Positions 13,269 to 28,746 of a DNA stretch of 64,000 nt are shown piece after piece; position 1 is the stretch's first letter, and the number at the start of each line of letters is the position of its first letter. Made by a program: the position numbers and the translations under genes. The notes below the pieces were generated by a model. That model saw only the letters and a list, made by a program, of their open reading frames with translations. It made no database searches and was not told where the DNA came from. This DNA is from a phage. The stretch lies in sequence record PV419677.1; one strand, 5' to 3'.

Positions 13269-13337
13269 AAGGACTCCTATTGTTGGTCATGATTACGCTT
13301 TGCAGCCTTAACATAGCGGAATACTAGTTAGTAACTG

Positions 13338-13345
13338 TATTTATA
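13338..13345 (-). promoter_or_regulatory. late promoter octamer TATAAATA (minus strand)
   Basis: exact octamer about 70 bp 5' of the rI start. Confidence 0.4.
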
Positions 13346-13616
13346 GACGTTTAAAATTAAAGCAGTACTCTGAAAATAAACCTGCAAAATTACGTTCAAC
13401 CCAGACCCGTTGTTTTGGGCTAGTGACCATTGACAAATAGTATGCTTGTTGCAGGCTTATTCCATTTTTATTAGGACACTCTTTGTTGAACGAGTGATAG
13501 GTACTTGCAACGATTTCGACTTCGCGCTCATACCTTTCCTGGTCCTGCTGCATAGGAACAAAAACCAAAACCAGGAATATCAAAATAGAGATATACGTCC
13601 AAACCTTGTATACCAT
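13341..13616 (-). CDS. small membrane-anchored protein (rI.1 position)
   Basis: 91 aa; hydrophobic N-terminal helix. Confidence 0.5.
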   Translation of the reverse strand: MVYKVWTYISILIFLVLVFVPMQQDQERYEREVEIVASTYHSFNKECPNKNGISLQQAYYLSMVTSPKQRVWVERNFAGLFSEYCFNFKRL

Positions 13617-13623
13617 GCGAACC

Positions 13624-14196
13624 TCAGCTTGTTAATTCGAGCCAATGTTTTCTGCACAAAGATACGTACGATTCATTCCCACCGACCAATACTTGCTCGC
13701 CGTCCTTTACAGCAGCACCGTCGATTACTCGAGCGGTCATGGTTGCTTTCCGGCCGCAATGGCAGACGCCCTTTAATTCAACCAGTTTATCCGAAATAGC
13801 CAGAAGTCTGGCTGAACCGGGAAATAATTGACCCCGAAAATCTGTTCTTAACCCGTAACACATAACGGGGATATTGTAATTATCGACCACTTGAGCTAAC
13901 TGGTCAATTTGCTCTGGTAACAAAAATTGAGCTTCATCGACCAGGACACAATGGATATCCTTTTGAGACTCGGCCCATTTATAGAATTCAAACAGGTTCA
14001 TGTCGGCCGTTACCAGGTTTGCTTCCTGGCTAATACCGATGCGTGATTTAATTTCAGATTCCGAGTCCCGATTATCAATAACAGGTTTTAGCAAAAGCAC
14101 ACTCATTCCACGCTCTTTATAGGAATAAGCTGCAGTCAGCAATGAAGCTGTTTTGCCTGCATTCATTGCTGCGTAATGATAAATTAAACTCGCCAT
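13624..14196 (-). CDS. tk: thymidine kinase
   Basis: 190 aa; P-loop MNAGKTASLL; C-terminal Cys pairs typical of TK. Confidence 0.9.
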   Translation of the reverse strand: MASLIYHYAAMNAGKTASLLTAAYSYKERGMSVLLLKPVIDNRDSESEIKSRIGISQEANLVTADMNLFEFYKWAESQKDIHCVLVDEAQFLLPEQIDQLAQVVDNYNIPVMCYGLRTDFRGQLFPGSARLLAISDKLVELKGVCHCGRKATMTARVIDGAAVKDGEQVLVGGNESYVSLCRKHWLELTS

Positions 14197-14205
14197 ATCA
14201 CCTTC

Positions 14206-14391
14206 TTAAAGCGTATTCACATAAGCTATTAATTCGTTTTCTTTCTCGTCAAATCGACTAGCAAATTCTTCCAGATGGTCGGCATCTATTGGGCCATATT
14301 CATCGTAAAAAGCGTTTGCTTCGGCATGCTCTTCCAAAAGCTCATGGATGAGCTCAAACAATCTACTTTTCTGACTAATACTTAAACTCAT
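14206..14391 (-). CDS. hypothetical acidic protein
   Basis: ORF track, 61 aa. Confidence 0.45.
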   Translation of the reverse strand: MSLSISQKSRLFELIHELLEEHAEANAFYDEYGPIDADHLEEFASRFDEKENELIAYVNTL

Positions 14392-14594
14392 TTCGGTTCA
14401 CCATATCGCACAAATTTAGGATGTTCGCAATAACCAGAATGAAAACCTTCACCCTTATGATTAGAACATCCTTTATTAGAACAGTACCACCAGTAATCAT
14501 ATTCGCAATTCATTTCATCATTGCATAAAGCTGCGATTACTGGCCATTCGCATTTTTCACATTTGGCCGTTTTAAGAATTCGGGCTTGGCTCAT
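14388..14594 (-). CDS. Cys/Trp-rich small protein
   Basis: 68 aa with 9 Cys. Confidence 0.5.
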   Translation of the reverse strand: MSQARILKTAKCEKCEWPVIAALCNDEMNCEYDYWWYCSNKGCSNHKGEGFHSGYCEHPKFVRYGEPK

Positions 14595-15045
14595 AATCCA
14601 CCACTATTAAATCAATGTCAGGAGTAAACATATCAATTAATTTAGAAACCTTTTCCCAATCTCCACCTGCAATACCACAACCAATACGCGGAATATAAAT
14701 TACCGGTTTAAACAAAAGGGTTTCTGCTTGTAGATTTAATTCTATCATACAATTTACTAAAGCACCATAATCAAGATTAGGGCCCGGTTCATATTGGGTG
14801 TACAAATTATAACACATACCAAACCCATTGGGCTTATGTTTAAAAACAATAGACATATCACCGAGTTTTTCTCTGGAACCGTATTCAGTAGTGGTTTTAT
14901 CTATTTCTAAAACTTTTGGATAAGCCTTCGCCAACTGTCCGGCAACACCAGAACCCATTGTGTGGAAGCAGTTACAACCATGGGCAATAATATTACCTTG
15001 AAGAAAGAGGGCGACGATATCGCCCTTAATATACTGGGTAATCAT
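14572..15045 (-). CDS. macrodomain protein (ADP-ribose binding/hydrolase fold)
   Basis: GDIV..NIIAHGCNC..MGSGVAGQL and PRIGCGIAGGDW match macrodomain signatures (compare E. coli YmdB). Confidence 0.7.
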   Translation of the reverse strand: MITQYIKGDIVALFLQGNIIAHGCNCFHTMGSGVAGQLAKAYPKVLEIDKTTTEYGSREKLGDMSIVFKHKPNGFGMCYNLYTQYEPGPNLDYGALVNCMIELNLQAETLLFKPVIYIPRIGCGIAGGDWEKVSKLIDMFTPDIDLIVVDYEPSPNS

Positions 15046-15401
15046 TTAGAGTTCAATCCTCTATTATATGAATCCACTAACCTGTCAACCATACTGGTGC
15101 AGGCCGCCTTATATTTTGCACTTGACAGAATGCAATCCATTTCAAATAATTTCTTTTCATATTTGTTGGATAATACATTCTTTTTCAAAAGCGTATGTTC
15201 AACATCATTTTGGCCATCTTTATAGGCTGCAGTGAGCTTGGCACTGAACTGGATTACACAATCCACATTGCTTGCTGCGCAATAATCTTTGGCCGTCCTC
15301 GTTGCATATTCTATGATGCTGTTGTTGTCGTCGCTCTGTACTGAAGCTATTCCTCCCATGCTGAATACTAACCCTATGGCTAAAGTGATAACTCTTACCA
15401 T
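15042..15401 (-). CDS. secreted/periplasmic protein
   Basis: 119 aa; signal peptide MVRVITLAIGLVFSMGGIASV; four Cys. Confidence 0.55.
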   Translation of the reverse strand: MVRVITLAIGLVFSMGGIASVQSDDNNSIIEYATRTAKDYCAASNVDCVIQFSAKLTAAYKDGQNDVEHTLLKKNVLSNKYEKKLFEMDCILSSAKYKAACTSMVDRLVDSYNRGLNSK

Positions 15402-15403
15402 TT

Positions 15404-15946
15404 TTAATCCACCGTTTTTAATAGGCCTCGTGATTTCAAGTAGTTAGCTTTTTCTAGGACCTGTGAAGCATACGTATTACCAGCTTTCACATTCCACCCT
15501 GCGTTATATGATGATAGTGTTTTTCTTATATCCCCCTTATGAATATTCAACCAGTATGAAAGCTCAATATAAGCCCAGCGTGCACTGTTCTCTCTCTTGC
15601 TTATCATCTTGATTATTTCTTTATCTGTCATTGTCCACCCAACCTGTTTCACTCGTTCGCGTACGGTTGGAAGATAATTTTGGAATATACCATATGCATG
15701 ATGCTTATCTTTATTTAATCCAGTATTAATCCCAGCAGAACTCTCCTGCCAGGTTAAACCAGCCATGATATATCCCAAACCATTATGTTGGTGCGGATTT
15801 TCTTTGTACTTACCATTTTTCTGGAATTGTTCTCCAAACGCATAAGCATATTGGAGGTTTTCCATTTGTTCATTACTGAAAGTAGGCTCTACGCTATGGG
15901 CAGACATACTAACTGTCAATAGTAAGGTGGCGATTACTTTTTTCAT
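15404..15946 (-). CDS. periplasmic lytic-transglycosylase-like protein
   Basis: signal peptide MKKVIATLLLTVSMSAHS; QESS..AYGIFQ..SYNAG resembles family-1 lytic transglycosylase motifs. Confidence 0.6.
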   Translation of the reverse strand: MKKVIATLLLTVSMSAHSVEPTFSNEQMENLQYAYAFGEQFQKNGKYKENPHQHNGLGYIMAGLTWQESSAGINTGLNKDKHHAYGIFQNYLPTVRERVKQVGWTMTDKEIIKMISKRENSARWAYIELSYWLNIHKGDIRKTLSSYNAGWNVKAGNTYASQVLEKANYLKSRGLLKTVD

Positions 15947-15956
15947 GAATTCCCCA

Positions 15957-16415
15957 TTAGATATAAATCACTTTTGTGCTAATTTTTCCTTCCAGACGAT
16001 TAGAGTTAACAAACGCCATACGACAACACATGGTCGGAGACTTCCCAGGAATAGCGGGGTTAACTGTCATTCCTAACCACAGGTTCTTGTCTGTGATTTC
16101 CAGACGAAGTGGACGGTAGTTCACATTCGGGTCAATTTGTGCTTCAACTTCCGGGAGTGGTTTCATTTCCAGGAATTCAACGATTTCTTTTACATGTGGT
16201 GTGATTTTTCCAAACAAGTCAAAAACATATTGTTCATCAATTTCACGTTGGATTGCACGGTCCAACAGGTGCGGACTGTACTTAATGAAGAATGCTTCAA
16301 GGCCTGCTTCTTTACAAGCCTTGTTGATAGCATTATTAATTTTGAGGAACTCCGTTTCAAAAATGCGACGAAGTTTATTGCGGCGAATGTAAACACTTGA
16401 ATCGATAGTAGTCAT
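15957..16415 (-). CDS. regB: RegB site-specific endoribonuclease
   Basis: from MTTIDSS: VYIRRNKLRR..HLLDRAIQREIDEQYVFDLF matches T4 RegB as recalled; 152 aa. Confidence 0.8.
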   Translation of the reverse strand: MTTIDSSVYIRRNKLRRIFETEFLKINNAINKACKEAGLEAFFIKYSPHLLDRAIQREIDEQYVFDLFGKITPHVKEIVEFLEMKPLPEVEAQIDPNVNYRPLRLEITDKNLWLGMTVNPAIPGKSPTMCCRMAFVNSNRLEGKISTKVIYI

Positions 16416-16471
16416 GATTATCTCCTTTTGTTTGATGGGATAATCATAACTCATTTCAATCTGCTTGTACA

Positions 16472-17051
<580 letters not shown>

Positions 17052-17055
<4 letters not shown>

Positions 17056-17285
17056 TTCACTTCCTCGCCAGTTGCGATATCATATTCCACCAAACGAATG
17101 CCGTCAGTCCAACCTTGCACGGAGATATAAGTAGTTGGATAAATCATTTCTTTACCATTCCACTGACCGCCATTCCAGACTTCCAGAAAGTCTTGTTCAC
17201 CGGGTCCATTAAACCATTCAACAAATCTTTTCAGAGCTGCGTCAGAACCTTCAATAGTCAATTTAGACATATTTTTTCCAGTCAC
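17052..17285 (-). CDS. hypothetical protein
   Basis: ORF track, 77 aa. Confidence 0.5.
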
Positions 17286-17562
17286 TAATTAATCGCACAT
17301 CCTGGTCATAGGTCAGGAGGCTACGAGTTATAATACCCTTACACGGTCCAGAAATAAATTCCAGAGTAAAGTAAGGAACCAACTTCATCAAGCGAATACT
17401 CGGAGCAGTGCAACGAAATCTGGACCCAATAAAAGGTCCAGACAAAAACACATACTCAAAGAAATTAGCTTTATTAAAGATTTCATAATTCTTTACGAAA
17501 TCCTCAGACCGAACCTTTGGGCTAAAATAGATTTGGTCAAAAAGCTCTTCATGGGTCATCAT
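17263..17562 (-). CDS. hypothetical protein
   Basis: ORF track, 99 aa. Confidence 0.5.
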   Translation of the reverse strand: MMTHEELFDQIYFSPKVRSEDFVKNYEIFNKANFFEYVFLSGPFIGSRFRCTAPSIRLMKLVPYFTLEFISGPCKGIITRSLLTYDQDVRLISDWKKYV

Positions 17563-28589: not shown

Positions 28590-28664
28590 TGGTATCCCGC
28601 CCTGGGATCGAACCAGGACCGCAAACTTAGAAGGATCGTATGCTATCCATTACACCAGCGGGAC
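28590..28664 (-). tRNA. tRNA-Arg (anticodon UCU)
   Basis: 75 nt hand-folded cloverleaf: acceptor GTCCCGC/GCGGGAT, T-arm CCTGG-TTCGATC-CCAGG, anticodon loop CTTCTAA, encoded CCA. Confidence 0.7.
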
Positions 28665-28669
28665 ATAGT

Positions 28670-28746
28670 TGGTGACCCAGACCAGATTTGAACTGGTAAC
28701 CTTTCCCTTATGAGGGGACTGCTGCTAACCATTGAGCTACAGGGCC
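28670..28746 (-). tRNA. tRNA with CAU anticodon (Met or Ile2-type)
   Basis: 77 nt: T-arm ACCAG-TTCAAAT-CTGGT, anticodon loop CTCATAA, encoded CCA; D-arm pairing imperfect in my hand fold. Confidence 0.6.

What the first reader, a model, noticed from the sequence alone, without database searches (positions are those of the whole stretch)
14572..15045. Phage-encoded macrodomain protein between tk and the secreted-protein genes
The 157 aa product has the macrodomain signatures GDIV..NxxAHGCNC..MGSGVAGQL and PRIGCGIAGGDW, comparable to E. coli YmdB or MacroD. Macrodomains bind or remove ADP-ribose. In a T-even phage this could reverse ADP-ribosylation-based host defences, or tune the ADP-ribosylation that T4-type phages impose on host proteins with Alt, ModA and ModB. 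I do not recall a macrodomain at this position in T4.
Basis: partly seen in the sequence, partly recalled or inferred. Interest (0 to 1): 0.65.

Follow-up and report, generated by a model that had tools for sequence, protein, structure and literature searches.

The report
T-even phage Tk.4/AdfM macrodomain gene
This is the ordinary, widely conserved T-even phage gene tk.4 (recently named adfM), a small macrodomain enzyme that most likely strips ADP-ribose off phage DNA to defeat the bacterial DarTG2 defence; T4 has the same gene in the same place.

Summary
A 157-aa ORF lies at 14572..15045 (-), carries every quoted motif, and passes Pfam's Macro threshold (35 bits against a cut-off of 22).

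T4 has tk.4 in the same gene order (tk ... tk.4-vs-vs.1-regB), annotated "A1pp phosphatase motif", and it is 56% identical. Homologues occur in 2,765 phage records. An identical protein is already deposited (Shigella phage fPSFA).

The window is an SP18-like (Gaprivervirus-type) T-even phage.

By sequence profile and by an AlphaFold model (pLDDT 94), the protein belongs to the TARG1/DarG/SCO6735/Poa1p-like macrodomain class.

The anti-DarT idea is right but already published:
- A 2025 preprint shows that deleting T4 tk.4 ("adfM") sensitises T4 to DarTG2.
- A 2026 paper shows that a distant PhiKZ AdfM removes DarT2 ADP-ribose from DNA in vitro.

One nuance: the T-even family has an invariant Gln where DarG and TARG1 have the catalytic Lys, as SCO6735 does. 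It also lacks SCO6735's DNA-positioning lysines and its longer mobile loop.

Verdict: a real gene that is already known, of low interest.

The parts
14572..15045 (-). tk.4 / adfM orthologue: 157-aa single-domain macrodomain protein (stop codon included)
   Evidence: ORF. Pfam Macro 35 bits > 22. PHROG 335 9.5e-71. 56% identity to T4 Tk.4. AF2 model pLDDT 94.3 with a macro fold.
14968..14994 (-). N18-C26 'NIIAHGCNC'. It contains H22 and N25, invariant in the family and equivalent to SCO6735 H24 and N27. N27 positions the catalytic-site Gln in SCO6735. The equivalent Asn mutated in PhiKZ AdfM (N23A) lowers activity.
   Evidence: Invariant columns. Alignments to 5e3b. PMC9411070. PMC13309987. Coordinates.
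14932..14958 (-). M30-L38 'MGSGVAGQL': the GxG substrate-binding loop of the macro fold. S32 replaces SCO6735 Lys34, a DNA-positioning residue.
   Evidence: Role of Lys34 from PMC9411070.
14794..14808 (-). N80-Q84 'NLYTQ'. Q84 is invariant and aligns with SCO6735 Gln85 and TARG1 Lys84 (= DarG Lys80 according to PMC9411070).
   Evidence: HMMER profile alignments to 5e3b and 4j5r. hhalign to SCO6735. Invariance. Q85A inactive in SCO6735.
14656..14691 (-). P119-W130 'PRIGCGIAGGDW': phosphate-binding loop. G122 and G124 are invariant and equal SCO6735 G126 and G128. A126 occupies the position of TARG1 Asp125.
   Evidence: G128E reduces SCO6735 activity.
15042..15045 (-). ATGA overlap: the tk.4 start codon (15045-15043) overlaps the vs stop codon TGA (15044-15042). 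This suggests co-transcription and translational coupling with vs.
   Evidence: Sequence.
15057..15061 (-). GAGGA Shine-Dalgarno-like motif 11 nt upstream of the tk.4 ATG, inside the end of vs
   Evidence: Sequence. Function inferred.
14572..14594 (-). 23-nt overlap of the tk.4 3' end with the start of the next ORF (14388..14594, 68 aa, Cys-rich, PHROG 2306). This is also the junction of a 210-bp deletion that removed tk.3 relative to SP18.

Best explanation
The ORF is the orthologue of T4 tk.4, recently renamed adfM (anti-DarT factor, macrodomain). It is a free-standing macrodomain ADP-ribosyl glycohydrolase, made with the neighbouring vs/regB-region genes. It most likely binds the ADP-ribose that the host toxin DarT2 attaches to thymidines in single-stranded phage DNA and hydrolyses the ribose-base bond. 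That restores replicable DNA and neutralises DarTG2 abortive defence. In effect it is an orphan copy of the macro half of the antitoxin DarG, carried by the phage. The active site is of the SCO6735 type. An invariant Gln (Q84), held by an invariant Asn (N25), sits where DarG and TARG1 have the catalytic Lys, so catalysis is probably by substrate positioning plus an activated water, not by a Lys nucleophile. Shown here: domain identity, fold class, synteny and orthology with T4 tk.4, and conservation of active-site residues. Shown by others for homologues: T4 tk.4 is needed to resist DarTG2 (genetics); SCO6735 and PhiKZ AdfM remove T-linked ADP-ribose from DNA in vitro. Inferred: that this 56%-identical protein has the same substrate and role, and the catalytic mechanism.
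For: Pfam Macro above threshold. The only PADLOC and NCBIfam hit of note is DarG, over its macro half. Same gene order as T4 (tk ... tk.4-vs-vs.1-regB), and 56% identity to T4 Tk.4, which is typical of the neighbouring genes at 35-71%. T4 tk.4 was the single hit in a transposon screen on a DarTG2 host, and a clean knockout sensitised T4 to DarTG2 (10.1101/2025.11.20.689424). Profile search of PDB gives BT1257 3.5e-21, SCO6735 4e-17, TARG1 5.5e-17, Poa1p 5e-15 and DarG 3e-12. The AF2 model (pLDDT 94.3) matches TARG1, BT1257, Poa1p and the Taq and Mtb DarG macrodomains best. H22, N25, Q84, G122 and G124 are invariant in 47 family members including T4 and align to SCO6735 H24, N27, Q85, G126 and G128. 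SCO6735 cleaves thymidine-linked ADPr-DNA, and Q85A, N27S and G128E impair it (PMC9411070). A distant phage macrodomain, PhiKZ AdfM, removes DarT2 marks from DNA in vitro (PMC13309987).
Against: No biochemical data exist for this protein or, in what I read, for T4 Tk.4. The preprint infers hydrolysis from genetics and structural similarity. The two lysines that position DNA in SCO6735 are not conserved: K34 aligns with S32, and K89 lies in a 5-residue loop insertion that the phage family lacks. DNA binding must therefore differ. Macrodomains of this class are promiscuous (protein Glu/Asp-ADPr, U-ADPr RNA, ADP-ribose-1''-phosphate), so DarT2 marks need not be the only substrate. The residue equivalences rest on sequence and profile alignments, not on superposed coordinates.
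Confidence: 0.8

Rival explanations
1. It is an ADP-ribose-1''-phosphate (Appr1p) phosphatase like yeast Poa1p, clearing a small-molecule by-product of RNA repair or splicing. This is the origin of the 'phosphatase' label carried by T4 tk.4 and most database records.
For: T4 tk.4 is annotated 'phosphatase; contains A1pp phosphatase motif', and PHROG 335 is named 'phosphatase'. Poa1p structures are significant sequence and fold matches. The HSCNC/HGCNC motif is shared with Poa1p (alignment).
Against: The label comes from homology only. The T4 phenotype found is DarTG2 sensitivity. BT1257/SCO6735 and TARG1 match at least as well as Poa1p. From general knowledge, T4's own RNA repair pathway (Pnk/Rnl) does not generate Appr1p. 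Many macrodomains show weak Appr1p phosphatase activity in vitro without that being their role.
Confidence: 0.07
2. It is a broader eraser. It removes ADP-ribose from RNA bases (uracil) or from proteins, countering other ADP-ribosyltransferase defences, or editing the phage's own Alt/ModA/ModB marks.
For: SCO6735, TARG1 and DarG also reverse uracil-linked ADPr on RNA (PMC13036486). SCO6735 also acts on Glu-linked PARP1 automodification. Macro domains are very common in myoviruses, 41% by one survey (PMC9503650), which suggests broader utility.
Against: Only DarTG2 dependence has been shown for the T4 orthologue. From general knowledge, Alt/ModA/ModB make arginine-linked marks, which this macrodomain class is not known to cleave.
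Confidence: 0.1
3. It acts mainly as a non-catalytic binder: an ADP-ribose/NAD-derived signal sponge, or a direct inhibitor of DarT2 by protein-protein contact.
For: Catalytically dead SCO6735 still inhibits DarT in vitro. Phages do use sponges against NAD-derived signals (general knowledge).
Against: Residues needed for catalysis in SCO6735 (N27, Q85, G126, G128) are invariant in the phage family. That is the pattern expected of an enzyme. The protein lacks the C-terminal DarT-binding domain of DarG.
Confidence: 0.03

Closest known systems
T4 Tk.4 = AdfM (anti-DarT factor, macrodomain), NP_049723.1
   Same: Same syntenic slot immediately downstream of vs (ATGA overlap here), similar length (157 vs 155 aa), 56% identity over 153 residues, and the same invariant H/N/Q/G residues.
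   Different: Different genus (SP18-like Gaprivervirus type vs Tequatrovirus). The loop reads PRIGCGIAGGDW here and PRIGAGIGKGNW in T4. This phage lacks tk.1 and tk.3 and has a 68-aa Cys-rich ORF instead. Function was tested only in T4.
Streptomyces coelicolor SCO6735 / Bacteroides BT1257 (Gln-type ALC1/TARG1-like macrodomains)
   Same: Best PDB sequence matches. Gln at the catalytic-Lys position, the Asn that positions it, and the GCG phosphate loop are all conserved. SCO6735 hydrolyses thymidine-linked ADPr-DNA and protects against DarT.
   Different: About 26-27% identity. The phage family lacks the 5-residue longer 'mobile loop' (KTGSK, containing K89) and K34 (S32 here). SCO6735 and BT1257 are cellular proteins, not phage proteins.
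DarG antitoxin of DarTG2 (T. aquaticus, M. tuberculosis)
   Same: Same macro fold class (Foldseek prob 1.0, TM about 0.72). The DarG models of NCBIfam and PADLOC are the best or only hits. Same predicted substrate.
   Different: Covers only the N-terminal macro half of DarG (about 146 of 329-338 model positions) and scores far below the family cut-off (31.5 vs 250 bits). There is no DarT-binding C-terminal domain, no adjacent darT, and Gln replaces the catalytic Lys80.
PhiKZ gp104 AdfM (chimallivirus)
   Same: A phage-encoded orphan macrodomain that counters DarTG2. Conserved Asn in the active site. hhalign probability 95.8%.
   Different: Only about 24% identity. It carries a DarG-like 'PTK' lysine rather than 'YTQ', and it is imported into a phage nucleus. 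It is probably an independent acquisition (inference).
Human TARG1 (OARD1)
   Same: Top structural match of the model (TM 0.72-0.74). It shares the PRIGCG loop and the following Trp.
   Different: Neither residue of the TARG1 catalytic dyad is present: Lys84 aligns with Q84 and Asp125 with A126.
MacroD / E. coli YmdB
   Same: Macro fold superfamily only.
   Different: The YmdB-type equivalog model scores 13 bits against a cut-off of 291. MacroD-type and viral Mac1 structures rank well below the TARG1/DarG class.

Membership tests
Macro domain superfamily (Pfam PF01661) | Profile match above Pfam's gathering score over the whole domain | tested here: met
   35 bits vs 22; profile positions 2-117 of 118.
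Macro domain superfamily (Pfam PF01661) | Three-layer alpha/beta macro fold | tested here: met
   AF2 model pLDDT 94.3, pTM 0.89. 181 PDB matches at E<=1e-3; every match shown in the top-50 listing is a macrodomain or a designed protein built on a macro scaffold.
T-even Tk.4 / AdfM orthologous group | Sequence similarity to T4 Tk.4 over the full length | tested here: met
   56% identity, E=1e-68, 153 of 157 residues. Same PHROG 335.
T-even Tk.4 / AdfM orthologous group | Conserved genomic position next to vs, in the tk-regB block | tested here: met
   Window order rI.-1, rI, tk, tk.2-like, 68-aa ORF, tk.4, vs, vs.1, regB, against the T4 annotation and SP18.
T-even Tk.4 / AdfM orthologous group | Required for phage growth on DarTG2-carrying hosts | not testable with these tools
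   Shown only for T4. Needs a knockout or complementation with this allele.
Gln-type TARG1-like hydrolases (SCO6735/BT1257 subclass) | Gln at the position of the DarG/TARG1 catalytic Lys, with the Asn that positions it | tested here: met
   Q84 aligns with Q85 and N25 with N27. Both are invariant in the family.
Gln-type TARG1-like hydrolases (SCO6735/BT1257 subclass) | Mobile loop five residues longer than in DarG/TARG1 (stated as characteristic of the subclass in PMC9411070) | tested here: not met
   hhalign and HMMER place a 5-6 residue insertion in SCO6735 and BT1257 relative to the phage family.
Gln-type TARG1-like hydrolases (SCO6735/BT1257 subclass) | Lys34 and Lys89 positioning DNA | tested here: not met
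   S32 aligns with K34. K89 lies in the missing insertion.
DarG antitoxin (type II TA, DarTG2) | Two-domain protein (macro plus C-terminal DarT-binding domain) reaching the family score | tested here: not met
   NCBIfam NF048014: 31.5 bits vs cut-off 250, model positions 3-149 of 338. PADLOC DarG: positions 4-146 of 329. The protein is 157 aa.
DarG antitoxin (type II TA, DarTG2) | Encoded next to a darT toxin gene | tested here: not met
   The neighbours are vs and a 68-aa PHROG 2306 ORF.
DarG antitoxin (type II TA, DarTG2) | Catalytic Lys (Taq K80) | tested here: not met
   Gln at the equivalent position. The link runs through TARG1 K84 and SCO6735 Q85 and the equivalence stated in PMC9411070. 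DarG itself was not aligned residue by residue here.
TARG1 (OARD1) | Lys84/Asp125 catalytic dyad | tested here: not met
   Q84 and A126 at the aligned positions.
MacroD / YmdB O-acetyl-ADP-ribose deacetylases | Match to the family model at its cut-off | tested here: not met
   NF001661: 13.3 bits vs 291. MacroD-type folds rank below the TARG1-like class.
Poa1p-like ADP-ribose-1''-phosphate phosphatase | Appr1p phosphatase activity and Poa1p catalytic residues | not tested
   Sequence and fold similarity only. The Poa1p structure paper was not in the library. H22 matches Poa1p H23 in the alignment. Activity needs an assay.

The most novel reading that the evidence does not exclude
The T-even Tk.4/AdfM group has the Gln-type active site of SCO6735 but lacks both its mobile-loop insertion and its DNA-positioning lysines, so it could be a mechanistically distinct third solution among thymidine-ADPr hydrolases. 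If so, its substrate range might be wider than DarT2 marks (for example uracil-linked ADPr on RNA, or marks from other ADP-ribosyltransferase defences), and this 56%-divergent allele might differ in specificity from T4's.
Probability: 0.15. Interest if true: 0.4.

Novelty: already known. Interest (0 to 1): 0.15.

Why it matters
It matters little as a discovery. The gene is a standard component of T-even genomes, has been annotated as a macro/A1pp protein in T4 for two decades, and was functionally assigned as anti-DarTG2 (adfM) in 2025-2026. The practical value is in annotation: the widespread 'phosphatase' or 'hypothetical protein' labels on this gene in SP18-like phages should read 'anti-DarT2 macrodomain ADP-ribosylglycohydrolase AdfM (Tk.4)'. 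The small mechanistic point may help enzymologists comparing thymidine-ADPr hydrolases: the family has a Gln-type active site like SCO6735, not a Lys-type site like DarG or PhiKZ AdfM, and it lacks SCO6735's DNA-binding lysines and long loop.

Tried and rejected
1. Rejected on the NCBIfam score (13 vs 291 bits) and the fold ranking.

2. Full DarG membership. Rejected: only the macro half matches, there is no darT neighbour, and Gln replaces the Lys.

3. 'Unusual position or recent acquisition'. Rejected: T4 and SP18 have the gene in the same slot. Divergence from T4 (56%) is typical of the neighbours at 35-71%. GC content is 37% against 40% for the window.

4. MAFFT alignment of six distant macrodomains. 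It mis-registered SCO6735 and BT1257 around the catalytic strand by placing the loop insertion before NMIGQ rather than after it. I relied instead on the HMMER profile and hhalign alignments, which agree with each other and with the published structure-based statement.

5. hhalign of the family against PhiKZ gp104. It gave a low-confidence register around the 'PTK' lysine, two residues off Q84, so the exact K/Q equivalence for PhiKZ AdfM is unresolved.

6. tblastn against plasmids to obtain a bona fide DarG for residue-level alignment. It returned only orphan macro proteins and no annotated DarG.

7. Literature search for the Poa1p structure paper. The paper is not in the library, so the Poa1p catalytic residues were not checked.

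8. The promoter/terminator scan of 13300-17300 found no more sites than shuffled sequence. Nothing was concluded about transcription signals.

It was re-run without that row.

Full report
**Observation.** All four quoted motifs are present, and I mapped them to nucleotides: GDIV (aa 8-11), NIIAHGCNC (aa 18-26), MGSGVAGQL (aa 30-38) and PRIGCGIAGGDW (aa 119-130). The gene's ATG overlaps the TGA stop of the upstream gene in an ATGA arrangement (15042-15045). A GAGGA motif lies 11 nt upstream. The 3' end overlaps the next ORF by 23 nt. This compact layout is typical of a co-transcribed phage gene block. A simple promoter/terminator scan of the region found no more sites than in shuffled sequence, so I conclude nothing about transcription signals.

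**Is it a macrodomain?** Yes.
- Pfam Macro (PF01661) matches at 35 bits against a gathering score of 22, over positions 2-117 of 118.
- PHROG 335 ('phosphatase') matches at 9.5e-71.
- An AlphaFold2 model built on a 46-sequence alignment has mean pLDDT 94.3 and pTM 0.89.
- Its best Foldseek matches in the PDB are TARG1, BT1257, Poa1p, and the DarG macrodomains of T. aquaticus and M. tuberculosis, with TM about 0.72-0.74 normalised to the query.
- A profile of the family against PDB sequences gives the same set: BT1257 3.5e-21, SCO6735 4e-17, TARG1 5.5e-17, Poa1p 5e-15, DarG 3e-12.

The YmdB-type equivalog model scores 13 bits against a cut-off of 291, and MacroD-like and viral Mac1 folds rank clearly lower. 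The protein belongs to the ALC1/TARG1-like class.

**What phage, and is the position unusual?** The surrounding 3 kb is 97% identical to Escherichia phage MN01, Shigella phage SP18 and relatives. SP18 is classified as Gaprivervirus, Tevenvirinae. PHROG scans identify the neighbours as rI.-1, rI, tk, a tk.2-like ORF, a 68-aa Cys-rich ORF, then this gene, vs, vs.1 and regB.

The T4 reference record has the same order: tk, tk.1, tk.2, tk.3, tk.4, vs, vs.1, regB. There tk.4 is annotated 'phosphatase; contains A1pp phosphatase motif'. The window protein is 56% identical to T4 Tk.4 over 153 residues (E=1e-68). That is in line with the divergence of the flanking genes, 35-71%.

Homologues are found by tblastn in 2,765 phage records. 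One protein is 100% identical (Shigella phage fPSFA), and about 320 records are at 90% identity or more. Existing annotations include 'tk.4', 'phosphatase', 'macro domain-containing protein', 'Appr-1-p processing domain protein' and 'Poa1p-like family protein'. A published survey reports Macro domains in 41% of myoviruses (PMC9503650).

**What it does.** The literature already answers this for the T4 orthologue. In a transposon-insertion screen of T4 (HIDEN-SEQ), tk.4 was the single significant hit on a host expressing DarTG2. A clean knockout sensitised T4 to DarTG2, and the authors renamed the gene adfM, 'anti-DarT factor Macrodomain'. They proposed that it removes ADP-ribose from DNA (bioRxiv 10.1101/2025.11.20.689424).

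A Cell Reports 2026 paper independently used the name AdfM for the PhiKZ macrodomain gp104. It showed in vitro removal of DarT2-made ADP-ribose from a TNTC oligonucleotide, with reduced activity in an Asn mutant (PMC13309987). That protein is only a distant relative of the one here (hhalign probability 95.8%, 24% identity).

**Active site.** In a 47-sequence family alignment that includes T4, the invariant residues are G8, H22, G23, N25, C26, G33, A35, G62, N80, Y82, Q84, G88, P119, G122, G124 and W130.

The HMMER profile alignments to PDB chains and the hhalign comparison with SCO6735 give these equivalences, using SCO6735 and TARG1 native numbering:

| Window residue | Equivalent |
|---|---|
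| H22 | SCO6735 H24 |
| N25 | SCO6735 N27 |
| Q84 | SCO6735 Q85 and TARG1 K84 |
| G122, G124 | SCO6735 G126, G128 |
| A126 | TARG1 D125 |

I checked the chain-to-native offsets by counting against the mutants named in the paper. The SCO6735 paper states that Gln85 is structurally equivalent to DarG Lys80 and TARG1 Lys84. It also reports that Q85A abolishes activity, that N27S and G128E strongly reduce it, and that SCO6735 cleaves thymidine-linked ADPr-DNA and protects against DarT (PMC9411070).

So the T-even Tk.4 family has the Gln-type site of SCO6735. It does not have the Lys-type site of DarG or TARG1, nor the DarG-like 'PTK' lysine motif seen in the PhiKZ gp104 sequence. It is not a plain SCO6735-type protein either:
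- It lacks the 5-residue longer 'mobile loop' that the paper calls characteristic of that subclass (KTGSK in SCO6735, which holds K89).
- It has Ser where SCO6735 has the DNA-positioning K34.

How it grips DNA is therefore open.

**Not a DarG.** The DarG models of NCBIfam and PADLOC match only over their macro half (model positions 3-149 of 338 and 4-146 of 329). The NCBIfam score is far below the family cut-off, 31.5 against 250 bits. There is no C-terminal DarT-binding domain and no darT neighbour. It works like the hydrolase half of DarG as an orphan, phage-borne antitoxin-like enzyme. This parallels the NADAR protein AdfN of T4 against DarTG1 (PMC11825919).

**Rivals.**
- The historical 'phosphatase' (Appr1p, Poa1p-like) label rests on homology only. 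I could not test it, and the Poa1p structure paper was not available.
- A broader eraser role is conceivable, because SCO6735, TARG1 and DarG also reverse uracil-linked ADPr on RNA (PMC13036486) and SCO6735 acts on Glu-linked ADPr.
- Editing of Alt/ModA/ModB arginine marks has no support.
- A purely non-catalytic role is unlikely given the invariant catalytic-site residues.

**Verdict.** This is a real gene, correctly recognised as a macrodomain, with a correct functional guess. It is the ordinary T-even tk.4/adfM gene, present in T4 itself and in thousands of phage genomes, and its anti-DarTG2 role is already published. Novelty: already known. Interest: low.

Noticed in passing
window 14572-14600 (compare L002:2560-2850): Relative to Shigella phage SP18, the window lacks tk.3. 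A clean 210-bp deletion runs from the tk.3 start-codon context (GGATTATGAA) to the next gene's start-codon context (GGTTATGAG), a short direct repeat. It changes the last residues of Tk.4 from ...DYESTLPTSV to ...DYEPSPNS without touching the macro fold. In one search, some close relatives match in one piece (e.g. MN01, TH44, vB_EcoM_RZ) and others in two (SP18, phage 212, P479), which suggests a presence/absence polymorphism.
   Followed up: partly
window 14388-14594 (-): A 68-aa Cys-rich ORF (several Cys/His clusters such as CEKCEW, CSNKGCSNH and CEH; PHROG 2306, unknown function) lies between the tk.2-like ORF and tk.4. It has no BLASTP match to T4 tk.1, tk.2 or tk.3. It may be a small zinc-binding protein.
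   Followed up: no
window 15957-16472 (-): The mechanical ORF for regB starts at a GTG and is 171 aa, but the PHROG endoribonuclease profile matches only residues 22-171. T4 RegB is 153 aa, so the true start is probably an internal ATG near 16415.
   Followed up: partly
Some database records annotate Vs.1 as an SLT/lytic transglycosylase domain protein. The HIDEN-SEQ preprint reports that T4 vs becomes important in minimal medium.
   Followed up: no
window 28590-28746 (-): ARAGORN finds only two tRNA genes (Arg-TCT and Met-CAT) in the whole 64-kb window. From general knowledge, T4 has eight tRNA genes in the equivalent region.
   Followed up: no
phage records: The Tk.4 allele of this window (90% identity or more) also occurs in phages named as Tequatrovirus-like (e.g. 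teqhad, Shinka, about 92-94%), whereas T4's own allele is only 56% identical. This suggests allele exchange of tk.4 between T-even genera.
   Followed up: no
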